A DNA stretch of 62,775 bases, filler included, from Phoronis australis (Eukaryota; Animalia; Phoronida), in NCBI GenBank assembly GCA_002633005.1. It is 9 parts of 9 records of this genome, joined end to end, with 100 filler letters (N's around TTAATTAATTAA, not from the genome) between each part and the next. Parts side by side here need not be neighbours in the genome. Positions count along the whole stretch, not along the records: positions 37,358 to 41,402 come from NMRA01002732.1; 8 more parts are not named here. One strand, 5' to 3'. The position numbers and the translations under genes are program-made. The notes under the pieces are model-generated. The model saw only the letters and a list, made by a program, of their open reading frames with translations, did no database searches and was not told where the DNA came from. Below, in pieces: positions 11,001 to 55,118 of this stretch (position 1 is its first letter; every line of letters begins with the position of its first letter).

Positions 11001-13770
11001 TGAGAACAAGCAATGATTTAACCTACATGGGTATAAGACTCAGGATGCATTAAGTATTGGTCCCTAATTGTAACAATACTTGAGTTACACTTACAGTATT
11101 TTCTACACGTCTACAGAATTAGCCTTCTGTCTAGTTGACCCAGTCTCCTTAACTGGTCACACACTGGTGTCATTAAGTCATTGATAGGATATTTACACTG
11201 CTACTGAGTTGTTAAAGCCCCTGAAAAGTTACGCCCCTGGTAATCATACCTTGATTTCCTGAACATATCCTTCCTTCCTGTGGTTGAACACCCTGTGAGC
11301 CCCACTCTCTCGTACGACCTCCATTCCCTCAGAGGTTCCAGCGGTACCGAACACCCTCAATCCTCGACTCTTAGCAAGCTGACAAGCAGCTAGCCCTACA
11401 CCACCGGAGGCTCCATGGACTAGCACTGTGTCCCCAGGCTTAGCATAGCCCCTGAAATGAACACGATTGAAAAGAATGTGGACAAGGTGATCAGAAGATG
11501 AGAAATAAACAAAGTAACCTAAACCAAACTGTATCTTTCATGTGCATAGAAGATTACATCCACATGTAGCTAACCATGTCTAAGGCAGCAGCTCAAACGC
11601 ACATGTTCCAATATAGCAACGACCTTTTGAAATAAACTGCATTGCTAAATGGCGTCGTGATTAAGTTTTATGGACAAACAATCAGTGTCACTTACACGCT
11701 ATGTGGACATGCATTTAGACCACCATGACTTTACAGCATTTTTTAAATTCTCCATGGCCATTATGCCTTCTGATAACCACCGCTGTGCAGTGAGATGTTC
11801 TAGTAACAAGTGCCAAAACGCAAACCTCAATATACATCAGATACAAACATGTCGCACGACTATAGGGATACATAAATGCTTATCTACATTTAAATACAGA
11901 TAGGCAATAGTTACAGGCGTCGAATGCATAAAGATCAATATTATGCCTTTATAATAAATCAGCCTAGATTCAAGCAAAACAGTGTTGGAATGTACTTCAT
12001 AAAATATGTTTTTCACATCTGGATGGAATATAAATAAATCTAGAATTTAAGGTTAAACTTACTTCAGGAATAAAGCTTTATACGCAGTGTAGTAAGGTGT
12101 GCCAATAGAAGCTCCTTGTTCATAGGTGACATTATTTGGGAGGAGATGACCCATGACAGAGTCCATGACACAGTACTGGGCATACCCACCACTGTGAGTG
12201 CCCTGGCTGAATGGGGCTTTTACAGCATAGACTCTGCTGCCAGGCTGAAAATAACATATAGTCACTGTTCAGTAAGTGTTACAGTCTCGAACTAGCAAAT
12301 GCGAAACCTACGCTACAAATTCCAAACGTATGGCCCCAAACCAATCACTACACACAAACCGACACTACCATATGCATTCACTCCAGTATCGAACCATTGA
12401 TGCATGAGTGGAGTTTAACCCCGGGTATGGAGTGTGTGGACTTGATAAGGGCACGAGTATGGAATTAGTGCCACAAGTTTGATGTTACGGCGAATAAGAT
12501 GACACGCTGTGACTAGTAGAGCCTGGTCTTGAGTAATAACAAGCAGTCAGTTCAAGCCCAGAAATCTCACCTATCATGACTATAGACGACTATTTGATAA
12601 AAAGTTCACAATGGTAAGTAGTCTAAATCAGTGCTTTTTGTGGTGAAAGATGGGCTTTATATGCTTAAAGACAATGCATTACCTTAAACTGTTTAACATC
12701 ACTCCCAACCTGCTCCACTTCCCCGGCCAAATCATTCCCTGGGACATAGGGCAGTGACGGGTTATAGCCCTGGCCTCCAGTGCGGATGTATGTGTCTCGA
12801 CGGGATTGACACCACAGGCCTTCACCTTCACCAGGATCTGCAACATGGTGTATGACATCATAACTAAGAACTCAGGGTTTGTCTGCAGCACGCTCTTCTG
12901 CAGAAAGACATGGATACGATTTTCTTGGGAGCCGCTCACTATACAGTCTATAACAACTTTGGCATCGCTCACGCACAGTACATAGCTTGCATTTCGTCTT
13001 GAAAATAACAAATAACAGAACTTGTATACCTCATCAATGTTAGTAAGTTATGGGGCACGTGTCACGACAGGAGTCACTACTTCCCACTGCCTTTTCACCT
13101 CTCCTCAAATTCCCTGTCATGATGACTGAGAGCAGGAATTCATTGCCATAGTAACTGGGGTGTTGTGTCATGGTCAGTTGTAACCAGGATTTTGTCAGTC
13201 AGATTACATACTTGAAATGTACTGTACATTCAAAAAATATTTAGACAAAATGACCCGGAATTCCCTGTCATGGCGGCTAAGTGGAAGCCAAATTCCTCAT
13301 CAGACTGTTGTTCCCTCGTGGCCGACAATGAAGGGGGACGAACACTGGGGAAAATTAGTATGGTGGCTAAGCTATTCTATAATTAGAATTCTGCCACACT
13401 AATAGTTGTTTCTAGTAATTCGTGCAGTTAACTGAATCAGTCAGAAAATGCTTTTTTGTCTGATTACTTTTGTCTTGTCCTGTACTATCGGTCTACTTAA
13501 TCAGAATACACGGATAGTTAGACAAGAATGTTTACTAAGCACAAGCAGAAAAAGCATGCACATAAAATACATCACTGGTAGTGTGTTCCAACATGTCTCA
13601 CACTTATAGGCTTCTAGGCACCACTTGCATGCCAATACTTTAGTTGAGAAATTATGAAGAGAACAAAAACAGACCTCAGTGGGTTTCAGTGCAGTGGGTA
13701 GAGCTTTCTGGACAATTTTTAAGACTTCTGGCCCTCCACATTGAGCAACTTCGATAGCAGAATACATCAT
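8021..13770 (-). CDS. CRYZ: Quinone oxidoreductase / zeta-crystallin; 7 coding exons: 13770-13675, 12837-12683, 12244-12063, 11451-11250, 10541-10443, 9095-9000, 8182-8021; apparent 2-nt frameshift in exon 2
   Basis: All introns are GT-AG. Translation gives [58 protein letters not shown]-like [34 protein letters not shown] (NADPH binding), [30 protein letters not shown] and GWLKPVV...[10 protein letters not shown]. Exons total 992 nt; removing 2 nt gives 329 codons plus stop. Confidence 0.93.
8857..8928. mobile_element. Short hAT-like MITE remnant (related end at ~38200-38313)
   Basis: CATGGGCGGCG...CGCCGCACATG inverted ends; CACTTTTTTCAGTGCT.CGCCGC.CATG is shared with 38287-38313; no clear TSD. 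Confidence 0.5.
9420..9885 (+). repeat. Old interspersed repeat family (related pieces near 22200-22260 and 51740-51975)
   Basis: Shared strings AAATTTGGCCAA, GATTCA.ATGAAA, TAGAAATTGTTTT, TTTTGCATAA, ATATTTGGCT.AAT and GGTCC.A. Confidence 0.5.
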
Positions 13771-14654
13771 AATGCCAGCCAACTACAAAGAAAGGAAAAA
13801 CACTCAACTCAGAACAGTACTGGGTGAATAGACACTGGTTGGATTAAACAGTCCTTAATTTTGAGAATTAGTTTGGTTGACACTATACCAGGCCCACGTA
13901 GCCAGTGATTGAATGGGTTTCAAATTCAGGCACCGTCAGTGCCCAAAAAGAACAGTGATTTACCAAAAGTCTTAATCCATGTTGCACAGGTGTGGGTGAA
14001 ACTATTTACATGTCATGATAGCAAGTAGCAGCATATGTAAATAAAAACATTGATGGATTTAAACTGGCTTGGGGATGGTGTTTCAATAAACGCCAAAACA
14101 TGTCAAGCCAGCTTAAATCCATCATTGGTTTAATCATTTTAATGTCTCTTTGGAAGTTTGGAGGGTGTTAAACCTATGCCATGATATTTATAAGTCATGT
14201 TATATTTTGCAAGTAGAACTAAGTCATTTAGTCTTTCTCAATGTTGAGCACTAAGAGGCAATTTTTGAAATGCATCAAGAACCAAGGACCTGTCAGTGTC
14301 ATTGACTCCAACCATGTTTTATGAAAATCCCGAAGTTCCTGAAGTTCAAAGGTTAAAGTCAAAACTTTGCAACAGAATAAATCTCCAGTGAACACCAAAA
14401 ATTTGAATTTCACCTCATCGGACACATTGCACAGTTGAGTTGCCGTCAAAACCATATAAATACGTATTACACGACCGGCTGGTCAAACACAAAGGTGCTA
14501 TGCTGTTTCATACAGCTAGCTGGCTGGCTATGCTGTAGCTGAGCAGGTGAGCATGACCGGCCCGGAAAATAAACACCAAACTAAATAAATACTGTACGAA
14601 ACACTGATTGAATGAGTCCTGATTAGTATTTACATGACTACTAAAATTACTCAC

Positions 14655-17196: not shown

Positions 17197-18654
17197 CATA
17201 TTCTTAGTCATGCTGGCGAAGCTGGCTAATAACATCATGTGCTGTTCTTGTGTCTCCTTCCGCTTATTGTAGTATTCCAAGATGGACTTCTTTATCTTGT
17301 GAACTATGAGCAGTAACACGAATGGCAGTGGGCTGAACAGCAAGACCCACATGGCCATGGTGGAGATGACGTCAGCGTCCGGCTGCTCTAGAGTAAATCG
17401 TAGTGTTAGTAGCGCCAGGGCGCAATTCGATAATGCCGTTTCTGTTGCTAAAGTTTTGGCGATTGGTTTTTTTTGTCGAGCAATTATTGCTAGGAATCCT
17501 CCGGTGCCAAAACCGAGAAACGGCAGCGAGATGCCAGCGATGATGGCGAATTTGTCTATGACGTCAAACATGTACATGTTGATATAGATGCCGAGAGTGA
17601 CAAAGAGAATGGCTGCCAGGAGCAGCAGAGGTCGAATGACCCAGGTGAGCATGGCCTCTGCAACGGCAGGCTTGCAGTGTAACGTTAGAAGACCGAGTAA
17701 ATAGGGCACCACAACAGAGATGAGGCAAGCTTCCAAAAGGAAGAATGGGAAATCGATAGTGCCAGCGATGCTTGGAAAGAATTGTCCTAGGGAGTAGACC
17801 CAAATTGGAGCTATCACTGAAATCAAACAAGACAGGAATTAGCCAACGCAAAATCTGTGGTTGATTTGAAAAGGTTTGTGTTAACTGAGGTAAATTTAGC
17901 ACAAGTCTATAGTTTGGTGATGGACCTGTCAGGATTCGATACTCACATGATTAGTCTTTTGAAACTACATTCTGCAAATTCACGGTCCTGTCAAAAAGAT
18001 TTCCTATGGTTCGAGAATTATGAAAATCAAAGTACTACCTTAGTTGATAAGAAATTGTTCTGCCATCAGATGGAATGTCAAACTAGACGTCTTGCCTGTA
18101 ATGAGTCGCCTGTTGTAATTGGTTTGTTTCAGAAATGTCTCCAGATTTTTGGAGTGCAGTAAAAATTCCCCAGTTTGGGACATAATGTGGCGGACAGGTG
18201 AAATTTCATTTTGCTCTTATTTCTCTACAAAATAACTTTCCAGGAAAATTAGTTTTTTTTCTGTGATGTTTTAATGGGGGGGGGCTTTTAAAAGGACATT
18301 TTCCAAATAAATGCCCCTCTATTTGAACACTTAACACCAGAAGTTACAACACCAAAAAAATGCCCATGGGCGTTTATTTGGCATAATTTTCCGGGTGGGC
18401 TTATCTACGGAAAATCCTGGTACCATAATTTTTATTATTGGGAGGATCAAGATGTAATACTCACCAATTACAGCCGTAGTACTGATGAGATTCATGGCCA
18501 TACTGAGCTCTTTGTCAGCATTGCCAATGATTATGACTAGAAGATGACCCATACCGCCACCTGGTATGCAGGACACAAACAGCAGTCCAAGTGCTAGGTT
18601 GTTATGTAAGCTTCCTGGCTCCAGACTGAGTATTTGAGCAAGTGCAAATGCCAT
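17197..18654 (-). CDS. SLC10-family sodium/bile-acid cotransporter-like protein, partial; exons 18654-18465 and 17816-<17197 (runs into gap)
   Basis: Phase-compatible GT-AG intron. Multi-TM sequence with ALGLLFVSCIPGGG, DKELSMAMNLIST, IAPIWVYSLG, LPFLGFGTGGFLA and AKTLATETALSNCALALLTL, matching the SBF/SLC10 layout. Upstream exons not found. Confidence 0.85.
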
Positions 18655-19840
18655 CTGTGAAAAAAATTGAGCTTGGTTTTTATCCCACACTTGTGATGAA
18701 GCAAAACCCAAGAGACTAGTTCAGTAGGTTTAAGTGGACAAGATTTGATGATCAGTCCTTTGTGCCTGAGTTTTAAATCTCTTCAGAACATGTTTTGTCT
18801 ATTCCATGATTTTATCGAATTGCAGAATGCATTCCCTTGCATGTTACGTCATCAACAAAAGTGGCAGAATATGATTATGCTTGGCTAGTCAATATTATTC
18901 AGTGCGCAACTTGCTGTTGTGAGCTCTTCATTAATATTATGATGTAGGGTTTGGATCATATAATACTGGTATGCCTGCCTGCAAACAAATACTCACTAAC
19001 AAGATTAAACCATTTTTCTTTTAAATTGTAGCGGTCTGTCTTGCATCTCAGCTGGGATTTCCAAAGAAACAAGTCGAACAGCCCAATGGTTTGAGACATT
19101 GTAAAATGAAGAGAAGACAAATTTTGGCGATTATTTTTAAGCAAAGTTGTTGAGATTTCGTTGTAGCATAACAAATTAGATTCTGTTTCATTATTTCTTA
19201 AGTTATTAATGTGTTCTAAACAATGTTCTAGGAATTGTTCCAATTGTCTTCACATACATGATGTGAGTATCTATCCTGAACACCTGCCAATTACAAAGTC
19301 TGTGATTGCATGCTTTCACCACCTGTTCAATTCCCAAGTTCACGTACCATTGCTTGGCTGACAAAATTCAGGATTATTGATTGGTGAGCCTCTGTAGTTA
19401 ATAGGATACTATGTAGCAACCATGGGCATTCCAGGACAGACTCGACATGTTAAGTTTGTGAAAAGGAAGGGCTACTACCCAACTACACTGTTTGAGATTG
19501 TGTAAATAAATGAATATATTTATTTTTGTGAAAAATTTTGACAAAGTGGAACTTAATTCATTACTGGCTATAAGTAAATAACATACTTGAAGTTAAGTAG
19601 GATCGTAGGAAAATGTTCAAAGTTGGCTTAATTCGGAACATCTTGTGGCAGAAATGGCTGATCGGATTCATAAGAAATGTGCGGGTACTACGGTATATGG
19701 ACTGTTTTCCAGAACAGTGTCAGGTGTTAGCAATTATTGAATGTATGTTACTCATCCAGTTAAGGCATAATGCAAAACAAAACAAAAATAAATGAATTAA
19801 TAAAAATGATCAAGAGGAAATCTCAAAAATGTTGTTACAG

Positions 19841-37357: not shown

Positions 37358-37404
37358 GTATTCCCAGGCGCTCACCCATCCAAGTACATAACCGGGCCCT
37401 GACC
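37358..37404 (-). rRNA. 5S rRNA-derived fragment (approx. 5S nt 55-102, diverged), not a complete gene
   Basis: Minus strand GGTCAGGGCCCGGTTATGTACTTGGATGGGTGAGCGCCTGGGAATAC versus invertebrate-type 5S ...GTCGGGCCCGGTTAGTACTTGGATGGGTGACCGCCTGGGAATAC. Confidence 0.8.
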
Positions 37405-38545
37405 AGCCAATCGCTGAGCCCTGTTAAGCACGGGCATTTCCTTAACAGGCCAATCGCAGTGCTCTGTTAAGCAAGGGCCTTGCTTAACAGCGCTTAACCA
37501 TTGGCTCGTTCGGCTGACGTCAAATTCCAATATGGCTACCACCTGCCACGAAGTCGTCGCTTCAAAAGTTTGAAGTCGAATAACGTCGCAAATACGTACG
37601 TATGGACATCAATATTTGGACAAATGTGGGAGGCCTAAGGGTAGAACAAGTGCGTCTACTTTAATTTTACTCATTGCCTCTGTATTTTCAGTTATTTAAC
37701 AAAGTTGTTCCTCTTCCGGCGAATTAGGTCATTTAGGTCATTGTCATGGTTACGCCGGCTGACCGGGTTGGGCCGTAAATTAAAATTGCAAATATTAGCG
37801 AAAGTACGCAAAGTTGGATTACTTCATTTGAGTGATCGTGAGATGGGGTCAGCTAGGTTAATTGAGCGTAGTCAGATTTTTCTTCATTGCCTTAGATTTG
37901 GTGAAATTAATCAGTTTTCCGTTCACTTCCGGTTTCAGTGCCGGCTTCGCCGACGGACGCTTTTTATGCAGTTTTAAACACTCGAATTTGCGACCAATTC
38001 TCCGTGAAACATTCAGTTACCGATTCGCACCGATCCATCCGTATGTCTATGAACAAAGAAAACCGTTAACACCATAATGGAATTCTCCAAAAACACAAAA
38101 TCCTTTCGTAAACTTTGGCACTGTTCATTCATGTTGTCATCGATCAGCTGATTTCTGCTCTGAACCAAATTTAGTACATTACATTGGCAGTTTATCATAG
38201 GGGACTACATGAGGGGGCTATAGTCCCCGTGGTCTGCGGACGATGCACGGCGGGTTGGCTGGGGGTCTTTAGCCCTCCCCCACAACACTTTTTTCAGTGC
38301 TGCGCCGCCCATGCAATATCGATGCTTTTTGTGTTTTAGAATTCATTACCTACAACTGTCAATTTTGACTCGACACATGAAAATTCACAAAGACGGGACG
38401 GGCTTCAAGTGCGATCCGAACTTCCTAGCCATCCCTGCAGTAAACTCACCACATTAGAATCACGGTATTGTTTTACTGCTCAATGGGTGCAGTGTTTTTT
38501 ATGTAATGCTAAAGTGAGTTGTTCGTATGTTGTTAAATCTTGCAG

Positions 38546-40007
38546 GAGACAGCATGTGAAATCGAACGAATTCTCGAGGAGTTCAAGGGACCCGCGGGCC
38601 TGGACGTGGATGGTATACCCCTGTTCAAGTCCCTTGAGGCGGTCGAGTGCCACTGGACAACAGCTAGCAAGCACTTGAGCTGCATGCAGGTGGGTATCCT
38701 TTGAGTGCATAGTCTATTCGGCTATCCTGGTGCAAGCAGAGTTAACTATAGTGACGTGTCATTCAAAGCTAGTGTCCGTGGTGGGTACGCAAAATATTGT
38801 TTGATTGCTGGTCGGTCGGCTTGTCAGAATAACACTGTCCCACAAGTCGAGCACAAATCCAATACCCCATGCTTATTGTATAGCCATCTGTTCTCTCAAA
38901 ACTGTCCACTCTGTGATGACGCTGGTTTAATCTTGTTTGTAACTTTTCTAACTGCTCTCCAGGATCCACAAGGGATCCAACTGTATGTGTGTACAAAAGT
39001 GGTGACAGTTAACGGTGTTGAGCTGAAGAAGTATAGATGTCGAAGAGGTACCAATTCACTGGAGGGTCTCCATTCCCACTTGTACAACGCTGTGCCATCG
39101 CAACGATGCGGTATTACACCGTTCCAGGTAATCACACCTGTCTGGCTATCGGACGTGTTAATAGAGAAAGATTTCTCCTTAAAACTTTCCCTTGTGCGCT
39201 ACACGCAATATCTCAGTAGGACATCTGATGTAGAATAAGTGCGTGGTTAACGTTGTTCTTTGTAGCTGTACATTAAAGAATTTCAATGTGCTGGAAAAAC
39301 ATATCCTTCTATGTTGCCGTGTGTTTCAGGTGTACCTCATTGCGTTCGCGGTACAGTGGAACCAGCGAATGGAGTCGCTTCGTGTAGCTGGAGGTCGGGG
39401 CCGACTGACGTCGTGCCTTGATCCAAGGCTCATCCAACGGCTCAACCAGCACTCTGAGGTGCTCTTTGGGAAGGGCCACCTCTTTGATCCGAACTTCCCG
39501 TCCCCATGCCGTACCCACAGCAATACACCGACCCAGAAGAGGAGGAACTCTTAGGCGTAGAATACGCGTATTGTCAGTCTACCAGCTTCAAATCCAAGGA
39601 ATATTATGTCGAGAAGGGTGAGCAGACCTGTGCTGCGTAGCTGAATTTGCCACTGAATAGAAATTAGCTATGCCAAATTAGTGATAGCACTGCTTTGTAA
39701 CAACATGCTCTTTACGGTATATCATAAGAATACTTTAATTGCCATTTCAGTGGATGAAGAGCAATCGCACCAAGAGCCAGACGAGAGCGAGTCGGAAGAC
39801 GAGGGCGTAGAGGTTGAAGAGGCGGTGGTTGACGATGACCTCATTGATCACGTGAGCTCCAATGCTGCACTCACGACTTCGGAAATGGTCACTGCAGAGG
39901 AAAGTCCCGCACTCCAGGATGTTTTAATGTCCGTTCGACACCTCCATCTCCCCGGCTTTGAAGAAGTTGAGGCATTGGCACTTGCACTGTTAGAACTAGT
40001 AGATGTT
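38546..40007 (+). pseudogene. Dada-type transposase, C-terminal half; exons 38546-38689, 38963-39127, 39330-39617 (1-nt frameshift near 39498), 39751-~40007
   Basis: GT-AG exons encode ETACEIERILEEFKGPAGLDVDGIPLF...HW...KHLSCMQ|DPQGIQLY...ELKKYRCRRGTNSLEGLHSHL...FQ|VYLIAFAVQWNQR...PNF/...ELLGVEYAYCQS|acidic EDEG tract...LPGFEEVEALA. The QDP-G-LY, YRCxRGTxSLExxH, WN and ELxGVEY motif order is that recalled for Dada transposases. Confidence 0.78.
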
Positions 40008-40009
40008 GG

Positions 40010-40237
40010 TGAGACAGTGTGGTCATTCGGCAGACACATGTCAAGTACGGTCTGTTTGTGAATTTCCTGGCAGGGGCCGTCCTTGCTTACAACAAGGACG
40101 ACATGATGCTGTTAGTGAACGCTGTGAGAAAAGGGAGTGAGAAACTGTATACTGTGGACACCGATATGCAGACGATAACATTCCTGAAGCCTTCGAAGCT
40201 TTTGTCCTATCTTCGGCATGTCACTTGCTTAGTTGAG
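40010..40237 (+). pseudogene. Displaced Dada transposase exon fragment (normally upstream of the 38546 exon)
   Basis: VIRQTHVKYGLFVNFLAGAVLAYNKDDMMLLVNAVRKG...LLSYLRHVTCLVE then a GT donor. Resembles the HxxYGxF...DxxxLxxAxR...RxxTRGxE block that precedes ET...GxPLF in Dada transposases. Confidence 0.55.
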
Positions 40238-41381
40238 GTAAAAATGTGATGTAATGTTAAAGAAGCTAGTAAATCATTTCTTAAGGCTTGTCCTTGACGA
40301 GGAGTTGGCAATAGTTATTTCAAGGTAGTATATCCATTAGAAGTAACTTGCTGTGGTTGACTGTCGTAGCCAAGAGAATGTTTAGACCAGTTTGATAATG
40401 TTTTAGTCTGTTTACATTATATGAATGTGTCTTTACCTGCAGTTGTTATCAGAGACTGATGATGATGTTATTGTACAGTTGACATTAGAGGGATGGCAGT
40501 CTTTGGAATATTTCTTGGTAGTGTTGTTTTTCTGATTTTCTTTCTCTCAATGGCTTTCCGTGCCAGTGTGTGTTGTATCACGCCAGCTTTGTAACAAGCT
40601 ACTGTGTATAACTTGCATTCCATCTTGCTGAGTAACCATTGTGTATCTGTTTATGTGGTTAACTCTTGCTTTGGTCATTGTAGTGTAACTCAACAAGTAC
40701 AAGTGAACTTGGCAGCAGCGTTGTATTGTGTGTTGACTGTCTCGGTATGTCAGTGAGATGGTTGTATTCAGTAACTAAGTGTAGAACACTCAAGTACACT
40801 CATAGCAGCAAAGTGAGGACTATCTTTATTAGACAAGTGAGCCGTTTATGTACAAGTTACTGTAAACATGAAAAGTCTGCTAGGGAAGTAGTATTACCAA
40901 TACTGCTATCAAACCAACATACTTAGTAATTAACATATATCTTGAATATATAACGCATTTCATGACAGTTGTATTTGTAAATAAAAGCTGAGGTAACACA
41001 GCCATATTGAACGATTATGTTCACTCTTTAGAAAGGCACAACGTGATGTTATGGATCGAATCCTGGCGGCTGGCCGTGCCTGTTACCTCAGCTTGAATTC
41101 TCTTTTAAATAATTGCTTTTCCTCTTCAATCATGAGGAACAAATATATCTCATACCTTGTTCATATGTATTTATATAAAATAAATTAATGGAAAGGCTGT
41201 AAAAATCAACCAACTTTAATAATTTAGTGCATTACACAATATATTTATGATAATATGGTAAAGAAAGATTGTCAACATCAAGCACCTTGGCTTGGGCCTG
41301 CTTTGGTCATCTAGAAGCAGCGCCATCTTCTGGCGCGTGCTTTCAAGCATGACCCATATGTACTTCCAGGGGCACCTGCCC

Positions 41382-41402
41382 ATTCCCAGGCGGTCACCCA
41401 TC
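41382..41402 (-). rRNA. 5S rRNA gene fragment (C-box region) running into the gap
   Basis: Minus strand GATGGGTGACCGCCTGGGAAT, 21 nt identical to recalled invertebrate-type 5S rRNA. Confidence 0.7.
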
Positions 41403-52474: not shown

Positions 52475-55118
52475 CTTGTTATGGTAGTTGCGTATTTCAC
52501 CCTGTAGCTTCTTGATGATTTCATTGGCTTTGATCAGCTCTTCGGACATTGTCTTAATTGACGACTCCATCTTCGATATCTGTCGCTGCTTTCGTTCAAG
52601 ATCATCTTCGTATTTTTTCTATACAAAATAAAAAGTCTCCGCACTTAACTCCTCAGAGTTATCCAAACATTAATAAGGCCAAAGAAAGTAGAATAACTGG
52701 TTCTGGTCTGTGCTTCTTTAAAAATAGCTACAGTGATTTAGTATTTTTAGTAGTCCATTTACTCAAAAAGAAAGTCAACTGATGCCAGCTGAAATGTGTC
52801 AGNNNNNNNNNNNNNNNNNNNNNNNNNNNNNNNNNNNNNNNNNNNNNNNNNNNNNNNNNNNNNNNNNNNNNNNNNNNNNNNNNNNNNNNNNNNNNNNNNN
52901 NNNNNNNNNNNNNNNNNNNNNNNNNNNNNNNNNNNNNNNNNNNNNNNNNNNNNNNNNNNNNNNNNNNNNNNNNNNNNNNNNNNNNNNNNNNNNNNNNNNN
53001 NNNNNNNNNNNNNNNNNNNNNNNNNNNNNNNNNNNNNNNNNNNNNNNNNNNNNNNNNNNNNNNNNNNNNNNNNNNNNNNNNNNNNNNNNNNNNNNNNNNN
53101 NNNNNNNNNNNNNNNNNNNNNNNNNNNNNNNNNNNNNNNNNNNNNNNNNNNNNNNNNNNNNNNNNNNNNNNNNNNNNNNNNNNNNNNNNNNNNNNNNNNN
53201 NNNNNNNNNNNNNNNNNNNNNNNCTGAAATCCAGCTGAACACTGGCTCTCCATATACACACAACAGGTTATCACATACCTTTTGCTCCTGTTCCAAGCCT
53301 AGTAAATCTGAACTCCTGGACAACACTTGGTCTTTGTCTCGGCACTCCTGTTCTAGAACAGCCACACGGGTCTTTAACTGGTTGGTCATCTTTTCCTATA
53401 ACCACGCACAAAGACAAACACACTAGGTCACAGATCTAGTACTTACAGATGTACAGAGAATGACACATAGAAAAACAAAATATTTCTCCCTGATCCACTT
53501 ACCCACAGAGGGAGCCAGGGTAGGGCAAGAGGACACAAAAATAATTTAAAACGACCTTATTTAATTAAATGACAAGCCAAGACGCGATGCGTATGTCCCA
53601 CCCATTTCATGTTCAAAATGGCAACTTACTGCAAAAAAATTCTCAAAACTTGTTTCTAATTCAGACAAGAAGTAATTTCTACGCTCGGAAAGAGACAACA
53701 GCACATTCTTTCTGGTGACCAAGCTGAATTAGCTGGCCATTCTTGGTCATCATTTTAACCTATTCATTATAAAAAATACCTGCGTAGGTACGTGCGCTGA
53801 AATAATACCCCTCTATTGAAATAAATATGCCGCGTTCACAGGCCACTTTCCAATTGCCACCAGATGCCACGAAGTCAAGCACAGCATACAACCTCTGACA
53901 TGACCTCACCTGTTCATGAAAGTCCCTGTCTAACGAGCTGTTTTCCTTCCGTAGGACTTGCACTTCCTGTTTCGCTCGCTGGTGTTCTTCCTCCAGGCTC
54001 GACAACCTCCCTTTCAACTCTCGTATGGTCGAATCAGAGCGATACTTCTTGTCAGTCAAATCCTGAAACGCACAACAGGGTACGTGGACTTTCAAATGCA
54101 CTAGGTGGCGCTAGGGAAACTACTATCCTCCCTGTAGTAATGCATGCATTGAGATACCATGGGACTCATGTCCCACGACTGTTGCCAAGCTGGTATGCAG
54201 AGTTGTGATGACAATCAATTCAAATGATGAAAATCAGCTCCAGTGTTCTGTTTCAAGAAGAGTCTATTGTTTTTCAGCTAAACACCAGTCTACGTATGGC
54301 TTAGCCTCTTTCACAAAATCAGGCCAAGGCTAAAAGCCAGAAAATTTGTCTACAACTCAAAGCCAGAAATCTATAGCCTTCGTGGGAGCAGACTAAATGC
54401 CAAAGCAGAAAGTCAAGCCTCCACTATACACTCTTTGAGCAATAGGTTCCCGAGCAATACTGGGTCACTCGTTGTGGAAACTAGTGTAAACAAAATATTC
54501 CTATAGTCCTTCCAGACAAAATTTCTATAAAAGGTAGAATAGATTTTTCTTAGTTTTCGCTCTGCACAGATATGTATTTACTTTGTGAACAATGGCTTTT
54601 TGTTTTTTGGAAGCTATGAGCAAGCTTTTAAGTCAAAAGCATATTTTTTTTACTTGGAACTGTTCCAAGATGGATTCTAGAGACACAGGTACATTCACAG
54701 TCAACAGATATCCTCTTATTCTGGACTAGTGTTGAAGTTCACGGAATAAGTTTTGGTGGAAGTTCTATTAACTGCAAGGAGGAACTGACTCTTAACATTT
54801 ACAAACACTTCTCTTGTTTACAACACACAAAATCAACAATGTCACATGAAATTTAATCCCAATATTGGACTTAAATTTTACCCTATTGGCTGCCTCATAT
54901 TCCTACTCTCACCCTATTGGCTGCCTCAGATTCATACTGCTATCTTATTGGCTGCCTCACACTCATACTCTTGCATTATTGGCTCAAACTAGTGCTCTTA
55001 CCCTACTGGCTGCCTCAGTCTCATACATTTTCGCCTCCAGCTGTTTAACAATCTTTAGATGAGCCTGCTCCAAGTCGCGTTTCTCACGCTCGTATCTCTG
55101 TTGTAAATCAGTCTGGGA
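52475..55118 (-). CDS. SASS6: Spindle assembly abnormal protein 6 (SAS-6), internal coiled-coil exons 55118-55002, 54062-53910, 53395-53279, 52618-52475
   Basis: Phase-0 GT-AG exons encoding ETEAASR|[20 protein letters not shown]...|[24 protein letters not shown]...|...[22 protein letters not shown], matching SAS-6 ([47 protein letters not shown]). Confidence 0.92.
54876..55026 (-). repeat. ~31-bp tandem repeat (x5) built from a SASS6 exon 3' end and splice donor
   Basis: Minus-strand units GTATGAnnnTGAGGCAGCCArTAGGGTrAGA; the first unit is the real exon end and donor. Confidence 0.85.

What the first reader, a model, noticed from the sequence alone, without database searches (positions are those of the whole stretch)
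37358..37540. Element terminus carries a diverged 5S internal-control-region copy plus GTTAAGCA palindromes
Seen: the left end has ~45 nt of 5S-like sequence, far longer than a TSD, differing from the right-end 5S (GCGCTCACC vs GCGGTCACC) and with small insertions relative to recalled 5S. It is followed by two 43-bp tandem units, each GCCAATCGC plus a hairpin. The second hairpin is the perfect 13-bp-arm palindrome CTGTTAAGCAAGG-G-CCTTGCTTAACAG (37464-37490), whose core resembles the 5S box A (AGTTAAGCA). Inference: the element end mimics its own target. This could provide transposase binding sites, TFIIIA/Pol III tethering or a landing pad for tandem insertion. The CCAAT, CRE (37516) and AATATGGC motifs may instead be just the transposase promoter.
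Basis: partly seen in the sequence, partly recalled or inferred. Interest (0 to 1): 0.7.

Follow-up and report, generated by a model that had tools for sequence, protein, structure and literature searches.

The report
Dada-5S transposon end resembling its target
This is the left end of a broken copy of a known kind of DNA transposon that inserts into 5S ribosomal RNA genes; its first 37 bases match the 5S gene far more closely than those of its fish relatives do, and the hairpins behind them are conserved end repeats that likely form the transposase promoter and likely bind the transposase, rather than a captured 5S promoter.

Summary
37367-41381 is a scrambled, internally deleted Dada-5S DNA transposon in a 5S gene, with a 7-bp duplication (ATTCCCA) at the published target. 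Its left end matches invertebrate-type 5S (+61 to +95) in 34 of 37 columns. All three differences are element-type letters: the extra A completes the subterminal inverted repeat that pairs with the right end, the C occurs in carp-family Dada-5S ends, and the extra T keeps the end in gap-free register with fish elements. End-target likeness at this inverted repeat was published for Dada-U6 and Dada-U1; new here are its extent (fish ends: 9 of 15 before the repeat, window 14 of 15) and a likely non-fish host. The CCAAT-plus-hairpin block is homologous to fish Dada-5S ends (CCAAT +41, GYTRAGC +47 and +57) and lies just upstream of spliced transposase RNA that begins at 37518 or earlier. It likely serves as promoter and transposase-binding array. 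A Pol III or TFIIIA role is not supported: box C is broken, box A-like sites lie 107-117 bases from it instead of 30, and the fish homologues fail the box A consensus. Tandem landing pad: plausible, untested.

The parts
37358..37366 (-). 3' part of the interrupted host 5S gene (+96 to +104); 37360-37366 is the left copy of the 7-bp target duplication ATTCCCA
   Evidence: Sequence; same duplication around the full-length element in L065; numbering from L122
37367..37403 (-). Left terminus of the element, 5S-like (+61 to +95: intermediate element and box C region, no box A), 34 of 37 columns identical
   Evidence: gap-free register with L065 and L060 left ends
37382..37390 (+). Left subterminal inverted repeat AAGTACATA, 15 nt inside the duplication; carries the extra base relative to 5S
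   Evidence: I21; same place in L065 and L060 (by construction of the search pattern) and in 4 of 4 intact published left ends (counted by eye)
37407..37449 (+). Unit 1: CCAAT box (+41), GYTRAGC repeats at +47 and +57, hairpin with 9-bp arms
   Evidence: same positions in L065 and L060
37450..37490 (+). Unit 2: CCAAT box and the perfect 13-bp-arm palindrome (37464-37490), two GYTRAGC repeats in inverted orientation
   Evidence: aligns to the imperfect hairpins of L065 and L060
37492..37504 (-). Third CCAAT-N3-TAAGC unit, reverse orientation; one base from the unit of L065
37515..37522 (.). CRE-like palindrome TGACGTCA at the 5'-most RNA read starts
   Evidence: read starts; function not tested
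37518..37595 (+). First exon of the transposase transcript (5' limit is the furthest read start, so a lower bound on its length); GT donor at 37596; its ATG opens only 13 codons in this copy
   Evidence: X7: 6 of 6 reads laid run on into the exon at 38546; X6 4 reads and X5 7 reads run on into an exon missing from this copy
38546..40237 (+). Remnant exons of a Dada transposase, incomplete and out of order
   Evidence: tblastn 59-75% to P0005; residues 690-764 lie behind residues 1009-1029; GT-AG joints 38686>38960 and 39616>39750 in RNA
41357..41365 (+). Right subterminal inverted repeat TATGTACTT, 16 nt inside the duplication
   Evidence: identical letters and distance in L065, which the search pattern did not ask for
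41382..41402 (-). Right copy of the duplication (41382-41388) and host 5S continuing towards its 5' part; holds the published Dada-5S target ATTCCCAGGCGGTC
   Evidence: PMC8869645; exact match in 291 5S copies

Best explanation
37367-37540 is the left end of a Dada-5S DNA transposon inserted in a 5S gene: a target-like terminus with the subterminal inverted repeat, then an array of CCAAT boxes and inverted GYTRAGC repeats just upstream of the first transposase exon, which likely acts as the Pol II promoter and likely as transposase-binding sites. Shown: target, 7-bp duplication, paired subterminal repeats, transposase remnant, positional homology of the array to fish Dada-5S, and spliced RNA starting behind it. 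Inferred: the transposase binds the same AAGTAC-TA-type motif 15-16 nt from the cut in both ends and in the target, which is why the end looks like 5S; the CCAAT boxes recruit NF-Y (recalled assignment) and the GYTRAGC repeats bind transposase as subterminal repeats do in hAT elements, perhaps also damping its promoter. The extra likeness of this end (34 of 37) most likely arose by recombination or gene conversion with the surrounding 5S array, with only the element-essential letters kept; retention of an ancestral target-derived end is the alternative.
For: Target equals the published Dada-5S target. L065, whose ends match published Dada-5S_ClH (by eye), has the same duplication and the same right repeat. 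The window's exons match proteins that carry DUF6729 and C2H2 fingers at 51-76% (21 of 21 hits) and L065 at 55-76%. C at +91 and AAGTACATA occur in 0 of 19 distinct 5S segments (291 matches), and the window's own right-flank 5S lacks the C. The same C is in Dada-5S-A_CaAu and LaRo left ends. The first 73 nt align without gaps to L065 and L060, with CCAAT at +41 and GYTRAGC at +47 and +57 in 3 of 3; 5 of 7 GYTRAGC sites of the window element and 5 of 9 of L065 lie in the first 150 nt (p about 1e-6 and 2e-7). Dada-U1 left ends have the same layout with another repeat (CCAAT or ATTGG in 12 of 12, GTCTAC/GTAGAC in 11 of 12, by eye), as do Dada-tA and tS with their own. RNA starts at 37518-37550 and is spliced. 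Subterminal repeats bind hAT transposases (PMC4890040); Dada shares the C/DxxH signature with hAT.
Against: No binding or promoter assay. Only one genomic copy of this left end could be read letter by letter; no DNA contig of X2 or X3 covers 37403-37477, and the only bridge from the 5S-like part to the hairpins outside the assembly is 2 reads of X6, perhaps one molecule, letters not printed. A 99-nt contig in X2 and 6 reads in X6 hold the same diverged 33-36 nt without the duplication, in what looks like a decayed 5S: this could be a host pseudogene rather than an element relic. The GYTRAGC array is at the left end only, whereas hAT repeats lie at both ends, which favours promoter over end-binding. 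The host's full 5S sequence was not obtained.
Confidence: 0.75

Rival explanations
1. The 5S-like 37 nt are copy-specific: a host 5S pseudogene fragment, a single recombinant, or an assembly mix of 5S and element reads at a contig end.
For: The segment lies at a contig end next to a gap. A second locus holds the same diverged letters in a 5S-relic-like context. Fish ends show no such extent of likeness.
Against: All three differences from 5S are element-type: the extra A makes a perfect match to the right repeat, the C occurs in two published ends, and the two insertions together keep CCAAT at +41 as in L065 and L060. The diverged letters exist joined in DNA and RNA of two samples, and the second locus also shares GACCAGC with the element. 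0 of 19 distinct 5S segments have either change.
Confidence: 0.13
2. The target-like end is selected as a landing pad: duplication plus left end rebuild the target, so new copies insert in front of old ones and spare intact 5S genes.
For: The left junction matches the published 14-nt target in 13 of 14 letters and keeps the repeat at the right distance. Tandem Dada-U1 copies separated by the duplication are published. A contig in both DNA runs laid (X1, X2; one sample) joins 41365 to 37400.
Against: That joint has 17 other letters and no duplication, and its orientation is not shown. Dada-U1 makes tandems with only short end-target likeness. The one mismatch lies inside the published target. 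Tandems could be a by-product, not a selected function.
Confidence: 0.2
3. The end is a captured 5S control region that binds TFIIIA or drives Pol III, tethering the element to 5S arrays, as Cassandra elements use a 5S promoter.
For: The segment covers the intermediate element and box C; TGTTAAGC fits the short box A consensus (4 sites); box C recruits TFIIIA (PMC8789306).
Against: The substitution hits an invariant C of the box C consensus (0 matches, 1 when relaxed). Box A-type sites on the 5S-sense strand are 107 and 117 nt from box C, against 30 in 5S. The homologous fish repeats read GTTGAGC or GCTGAGC and do not track fish box A. The box A consensus is loose: 7 hits in 203 nt. Other Dada lineages have the same layout with unrelated repeats.
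Confidence: 0.07

Closest known systems
Dada-5S (Kojima 2022, PMC8869645): Dada-5S_ClH, -A_CaAu, _LaRo, _NoCe
   Same: Target ATTCCCAGGCGGTC, orientation, 7-bp duplication, subterminal repeat at +16 and 16 nt from the right end, CCAAT-N3-TGAGC units, short first exon, transposase 55-76% identical to L065.
   Different: Left end matches 5S in 14 of 15 before and 9 of 9 after the repeat (fish 9 of 15 and 3 of 9); repeat mostly GTTAAGC instead of GTTGAGC; invertebrate-type 5S target, whereas the six published families are all from ray-finned fish; this copy is 4.0 kb, deleted and scrambled.
Dada-U6 and Dada-U1 (Kojima and Jurka 2013, PMC3706591)
   Same: [quoted passage not shown]
   Different: Published likeness is 7-9 bp; here it extends over 37 nt. 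The CCAAT-plus-repeat array is not described in the text read.
Subterminal repeats of hAT transposons (Tgf2, Tol2, Ac; PMC4890040)
   Same: Short repeats in both orientations near the end, next to an N-terminal zinc-finger DDE transposase gene.
   Different: hAT has terminal inverted repeats, 8-bp duplications and repeats at both ends; binding is shown for hAT, not for Dada.
Cassandra TRIM retrotransposons (bioRxiv 10.1101/2023.07.14.548913, abstract read)
   Same: 5S-derived sequence in the terminal region of a mobile element.
   Different: Cassandra keeps a conserved 5S internal promoter in its LTRs; here box A is missing from its place, box C is broken, and the element is a DNA transposon transcribed from the other strand.

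Membership tests
Dada-5S | Insertion at ATTCCCAGGCGGTC in a 5S gene | tested here: met
   Right junction 41382-41395; flank matches 291 5S copies exactly. Flanks are short (9 and 21 nt) because of gaps.
Dada-5S | 6-7 bp target duplication | tested here: met
   ATTCCCA at 37360-37366 and 41382-41388; same in L065
Dada | No terminal inverted repeats, short subterminal inverted repeats also found in the target at the same distance | tested here: met
   9-bp pair 37382-37390 / 41357-41365; 8 of 9 columns to 5S at the same offset
Dada | Dada-type DDE transposase with DxxH motif and zinc fingers | tested here: inconclusive
   Remnant exons are 55-76% identical to L065 and 51-76% to 21 proteins, but the copy lacks most of the gene and Pfam gave no significant family on 5 of 5 window pieces scanned. 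The catalytic triad was not mapped.
Dada-5S | Transposase groups with Dada-5S rather than Dada-U1 in a tree | not tested
Type 1 Pol III promoter (5S control region) | Box C consensus | tested here: not met
   0 matches to the consensus of PMC3369914; 1 match when its invariant C is relaxed
Type 1 Pol III promoter (5S control region) | Box A about 30 nt upstream of box C | tested here: not met
   Nearest consensus sites 107 and 117 nt away, 30 in L122
Type 1 Pol III promoter (5S control region) | TFIIIA binding and Pol III transcription | not testable with these tools
   Needs EMSA, ChIP or small-RNA data
Ordinary 5S gene variant | Same letters in intact 5S genes | tested here: not met
   0 of 19 distinct segments from other organisms carry the C or the extra A; Rfam finds no 5S in the window; the host's own full 5S was not available

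The most novel reading that the evidence does not exclude
Dada finds its target because the target looks like its own end: the transposase reads both the subterminal inverted repeat (5S loop E and box C region) and the GYTRAGC repeats (5S box A) in the gene, and in this invertebrate lineage the left end is kept 5S-like by exchange with the array, so that each insertion rebuilds a target for the next. Target choice across Dada would then be predictable, and perhaps reprogrammable, from the end repeats.
Probability: 0.18. Interest if true: 0.65.

Novelty: new variant of a known kind. Interest (0 to 1): 0.33.

Why it matters
Dada is one of few DNA transposon groups with strict sequence targets, proposed as a site-specific gene-delivery tool, and its recognition mechanism is untested in the papers read. 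This end adds three testable points: a Dada-5S that likely lies outside ray-finned fish, a terminus with 37 nt of target likeness, and a positionally conserved CCAAT-plus-repeat array that defines candidate minimal ends and binding sites. It does not show a new kind of system or a captured Pol III promoter.

Tried and rejected
No whole genome is held, so copies could not be aligned. Rfam: nothing at gathering score in the window, and one chance hit (Plasmid_R1162, E 2.8) on the palindrome. The metagenome scan for left junctions gave 69 loci; 66 were dropped as chance matches after reading their context, 3 kept (L014 and L065 are the same element, L060 another); none was a close relative of the window end. 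The scan of genome contigs gave 94 overlapping loci with eukaryote-type 5S arrays but no Dada junction and no transposase; 0 of 5 of those genomes matched P0011. Viral contigs: nothing. Host clade: one host exon found no hit, another only a 38% flatworm hit, so 'not a fish' rests mainly on the 5S type. Three look-ups in earlier findings were empty. Two searches for a paper on single-base TFIIIA contacts gave none that I used. Rejected: 45-nt duplication (the duplication is 7 bp); restoration of the interrupted 5S gene (positions +1 to +60 are absent); AATATGGC as the transposase start (13 codons only). No structure or complex prediction was run.

Full report
1. The observation. The finding sits at the start of a 4,045-nt contig (37358-41402) with scaffold gaps on both sides. 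The 5S-like start, the two 43-nt units (79% alike) and the perfect 13-bp-arm palindrome at 37464-37490 are all there. The palindrome is the only one with arms of 11 bp or more in the window apart from a TA microsatellite (0.003 expected), and 37400-37510 folds better than 200 of 200 shuffles. The CRE starts at 37515.

2. The element. Both contig ends carry ATTCCCAGGCG, and the right end holds the published Dada-5S target ATTCCCAGGCGGTC (PMC8869645). A metagenome scan for duplication plus subterminal repeat gave 69 loci, of which 3 are true junctions by context. L065 is a full 8,217-nt element inside a 5S gene; its ends match published Dada-5S_ClH by eye. It has the same 7-bp duplication, ATTCCCA, and the same right repeat 16 nt from the end, a feature the pattern did not ask for. 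The window element is therefore 37367-41381. Its exons match L065 at 55-76% and 21 of 21 database hits at 51-76%, from fish, amphioxus, sea urchin and unnamed records. The copy is defective: most of the gene is missing and residues 690-764 of P0005 lie behind residues 1009-1029. Other copies exist: DNA contigs show hundreds of variant places and RNA reads splice into an exon that this copy lacks.

3. The 5S-like end. A scan that allowed C or G at the disputed base fetched 94 overlapping loci with 291 matches and 19 distinct 5S segments, eukaryote-type arrays lying in prokaryote genome bins. None has the C and none has AAGTACATA. The best aligns to 37367-37403 in 34 of 37 columns, covering 5S +61 to +95. 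Each difference fits the element rather than the gene. The extra A completes AAGTACATA, the exact reverse complement of the right repeat. The C stands at the same place in the goldfish and rohu left ends. With both insertions the first 73 nt align without gaps to L065 and L060. So the segment is the terminus itself. [quoted passage not shown] What differs is the extent: 14 of 15 before the repeat and 9 of 9 after it, against 9 of 15 and 3 of 9 for both fish ends. Even at the fish level of likeness, 14 of 15 has p 0.005, and the 9-nt run 2e-6.

4. Is it fixed among copies? Only partly shown. No contig of X2 or X3 covers 37403-37477, a hole that proves nothing. Two reads of X6, a different sample, lie whole on about 37383-37534 and join the second half of the segment to the hairpins; they may be one molecule and their letters are not printed. 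A 99-nt contig of X2 and 6 reads of X6 carry 33-36 nt of the diverged segment without a gap, but with other flanks that look, by eye, like a 5S gene with deletions and lack the duplication.

5. The hairpins. CCAAT stands at +41 and GYTRAGC at +47 and +57 in the window, L065 and L060; the pattern that fetched them did not include these. GYTRAGC sites cluster in the first 150 nt (5 of 7 in the window element, 5 of 9 in L065). All 4 intact published left ends, of 6 families, show the same units (by eye). Dada-U1 ends have the same layout with GTCTAC/GTAGAC (CCAAT or ATTGG in 12 of 12 printed, the repeat in 11 of 12), and Dada-tA and tS have their own repeats. The palindrome is thus two inverted copies of a lineage-specific subterminal repeat. 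The libraries are stranded (spliced reads 0 versus 3 and 0 versus 8). Plus-strand reads begin at 37518-37550 and splice at the GT at 37596, in X7 (6 of 6 reads) to 38546, in X5 (7 reads) and X6 (4 reads) to an exon whose first letters read, by eye, as a start codon and a CxxC pair like the C2H2 finger that opens P0005. The block lies 15-110 nt upstream of these starts, where a Pol II promoter is expected. That CCAAT boxes bind NF-Y is recalled. Binding of subterminal repeats by zinc-finger transposases is shown for hAT elements (PMC4890040) and inferred here.

6. Pol III and TFIIIA. The substitution removes an invariant C of the box C consensus (PMC3369914; 0 matches). Sites that fit box A on the 5S-sense strand are 107 and 117 nt from box C, against 30 in a gene. 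The fish repeats fail the box A consensus although fish 5S meets it. In 5S the reversed box A starts at +39, while the ends have their first repeat forward at +47. A common root of GYTRAGC and box A is not excluded, since each fish form is one base from a box A; this is kept as the novel case.

7. Landing pad. Duplication plus left end match the target in 13 of 14 letters, and tandem Dada-U1 copies are published. A contig in X1 and X2 joins 41365 to 37400 through 17 other letters; it is not a clean tandem junction and stays unexplained.

8. Host and novelty. The target has the 5S type found in the 19 segments (best match) and not the fish type of L065 (13 of 15 and 8 of 9); a host gene found only a 38% flatworm hit. 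The host is likely an invertebrate. 'Dada-5S' occurs in 1 paper of the library, which lists fish only; searches for invertebrate target-specific Dada (0 papers), Dada subterminal structure (4 listed, none on it by title) and later Dada papers showed no description of this end. Repbase entries and the papers' figures, which print termini beside targets, could not be seen and may already show part of it.

9. What was read. PMC8869645: whole main text and supplement passages. PMC3706591: parts 1-3 of 4 and supplements S2, S3. PMC3369914, PMC8789306, PMC4890040, PMC10245719, PMC13565253: passages. Cassandra preprint: abstract and outline; its supplements are closed.

10. Verdict. A real, conserved transposon end of a known lineage, with an unusually long target likeness and a likely new host group. 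Interest 0.33.

Noticed in passing
window 41365 joined to 37400 (contig in runs X1, X2): A right-end piece and a left-end piece are joined through 17 other letters, at a depth like that of the element body: a tandem or circle junction with loss of both termini, or the end of a sister family.
   Followed up: partly
window 37364-37399 (X2 record 1, X6 reads): A second locus holds the diverged segment in a 5S-relic-like context without the duplication and is read in RNA in the 5S-sense direction (6 reads).
   Followed up: partly
window 37595 spliced to 38546 (run X7): A deleted, non-autonomous form like this copy is transcribed and spliced in another sample.
   Followed up: partly
window 40013-40237: A transposase exon lies behind exons that follow it in intact proteins: rearranged copy or misassembly.
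   Followed up: partly
L065 1-8481, L014, L060: Fish-type Dada-5S insertions in metagenome contigs; L065 is full length with both 5S flanks, and L060 has a left end not among the four intact published ones seen.
   Followed up: yes
P0009, P0011, P0014, P0017, P0018: Amphioxus and sea-urchin proteins are 75-80% identical to the window exon, as are fish proteins: possibly more invertebrate Dada-5S, or horizontal transfer; no genomic context available.
   Followed up: no
Dada-tS left ends in the supplement of PMC8869645: Their subterminal repeat (TCCGAAC/TCCTAAC) resembles, by eye only, the reverse of the tRNA B box printed; a lead for the idea that end repeats mirror target motifs.
   Followed up: no
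window 38170-38440 and 40730-40870: Very high contig depth (thousands): short high-copy host repeats inserted in the element.
   Followed up: no
window 11244-13782, 17197-18720, 52700-54110 (minus strand): Host exons on other contigs that look like a quinone oxidoreductase, an SLC10-type transporter (PF01758 hit) and SAS-6 (first and last names recalled).
   Followed up: partly
L070-L163: Eukaryote-type 5S tandem arrays inside prokaryote genome bins, likely host contamination.
   Followed up: no
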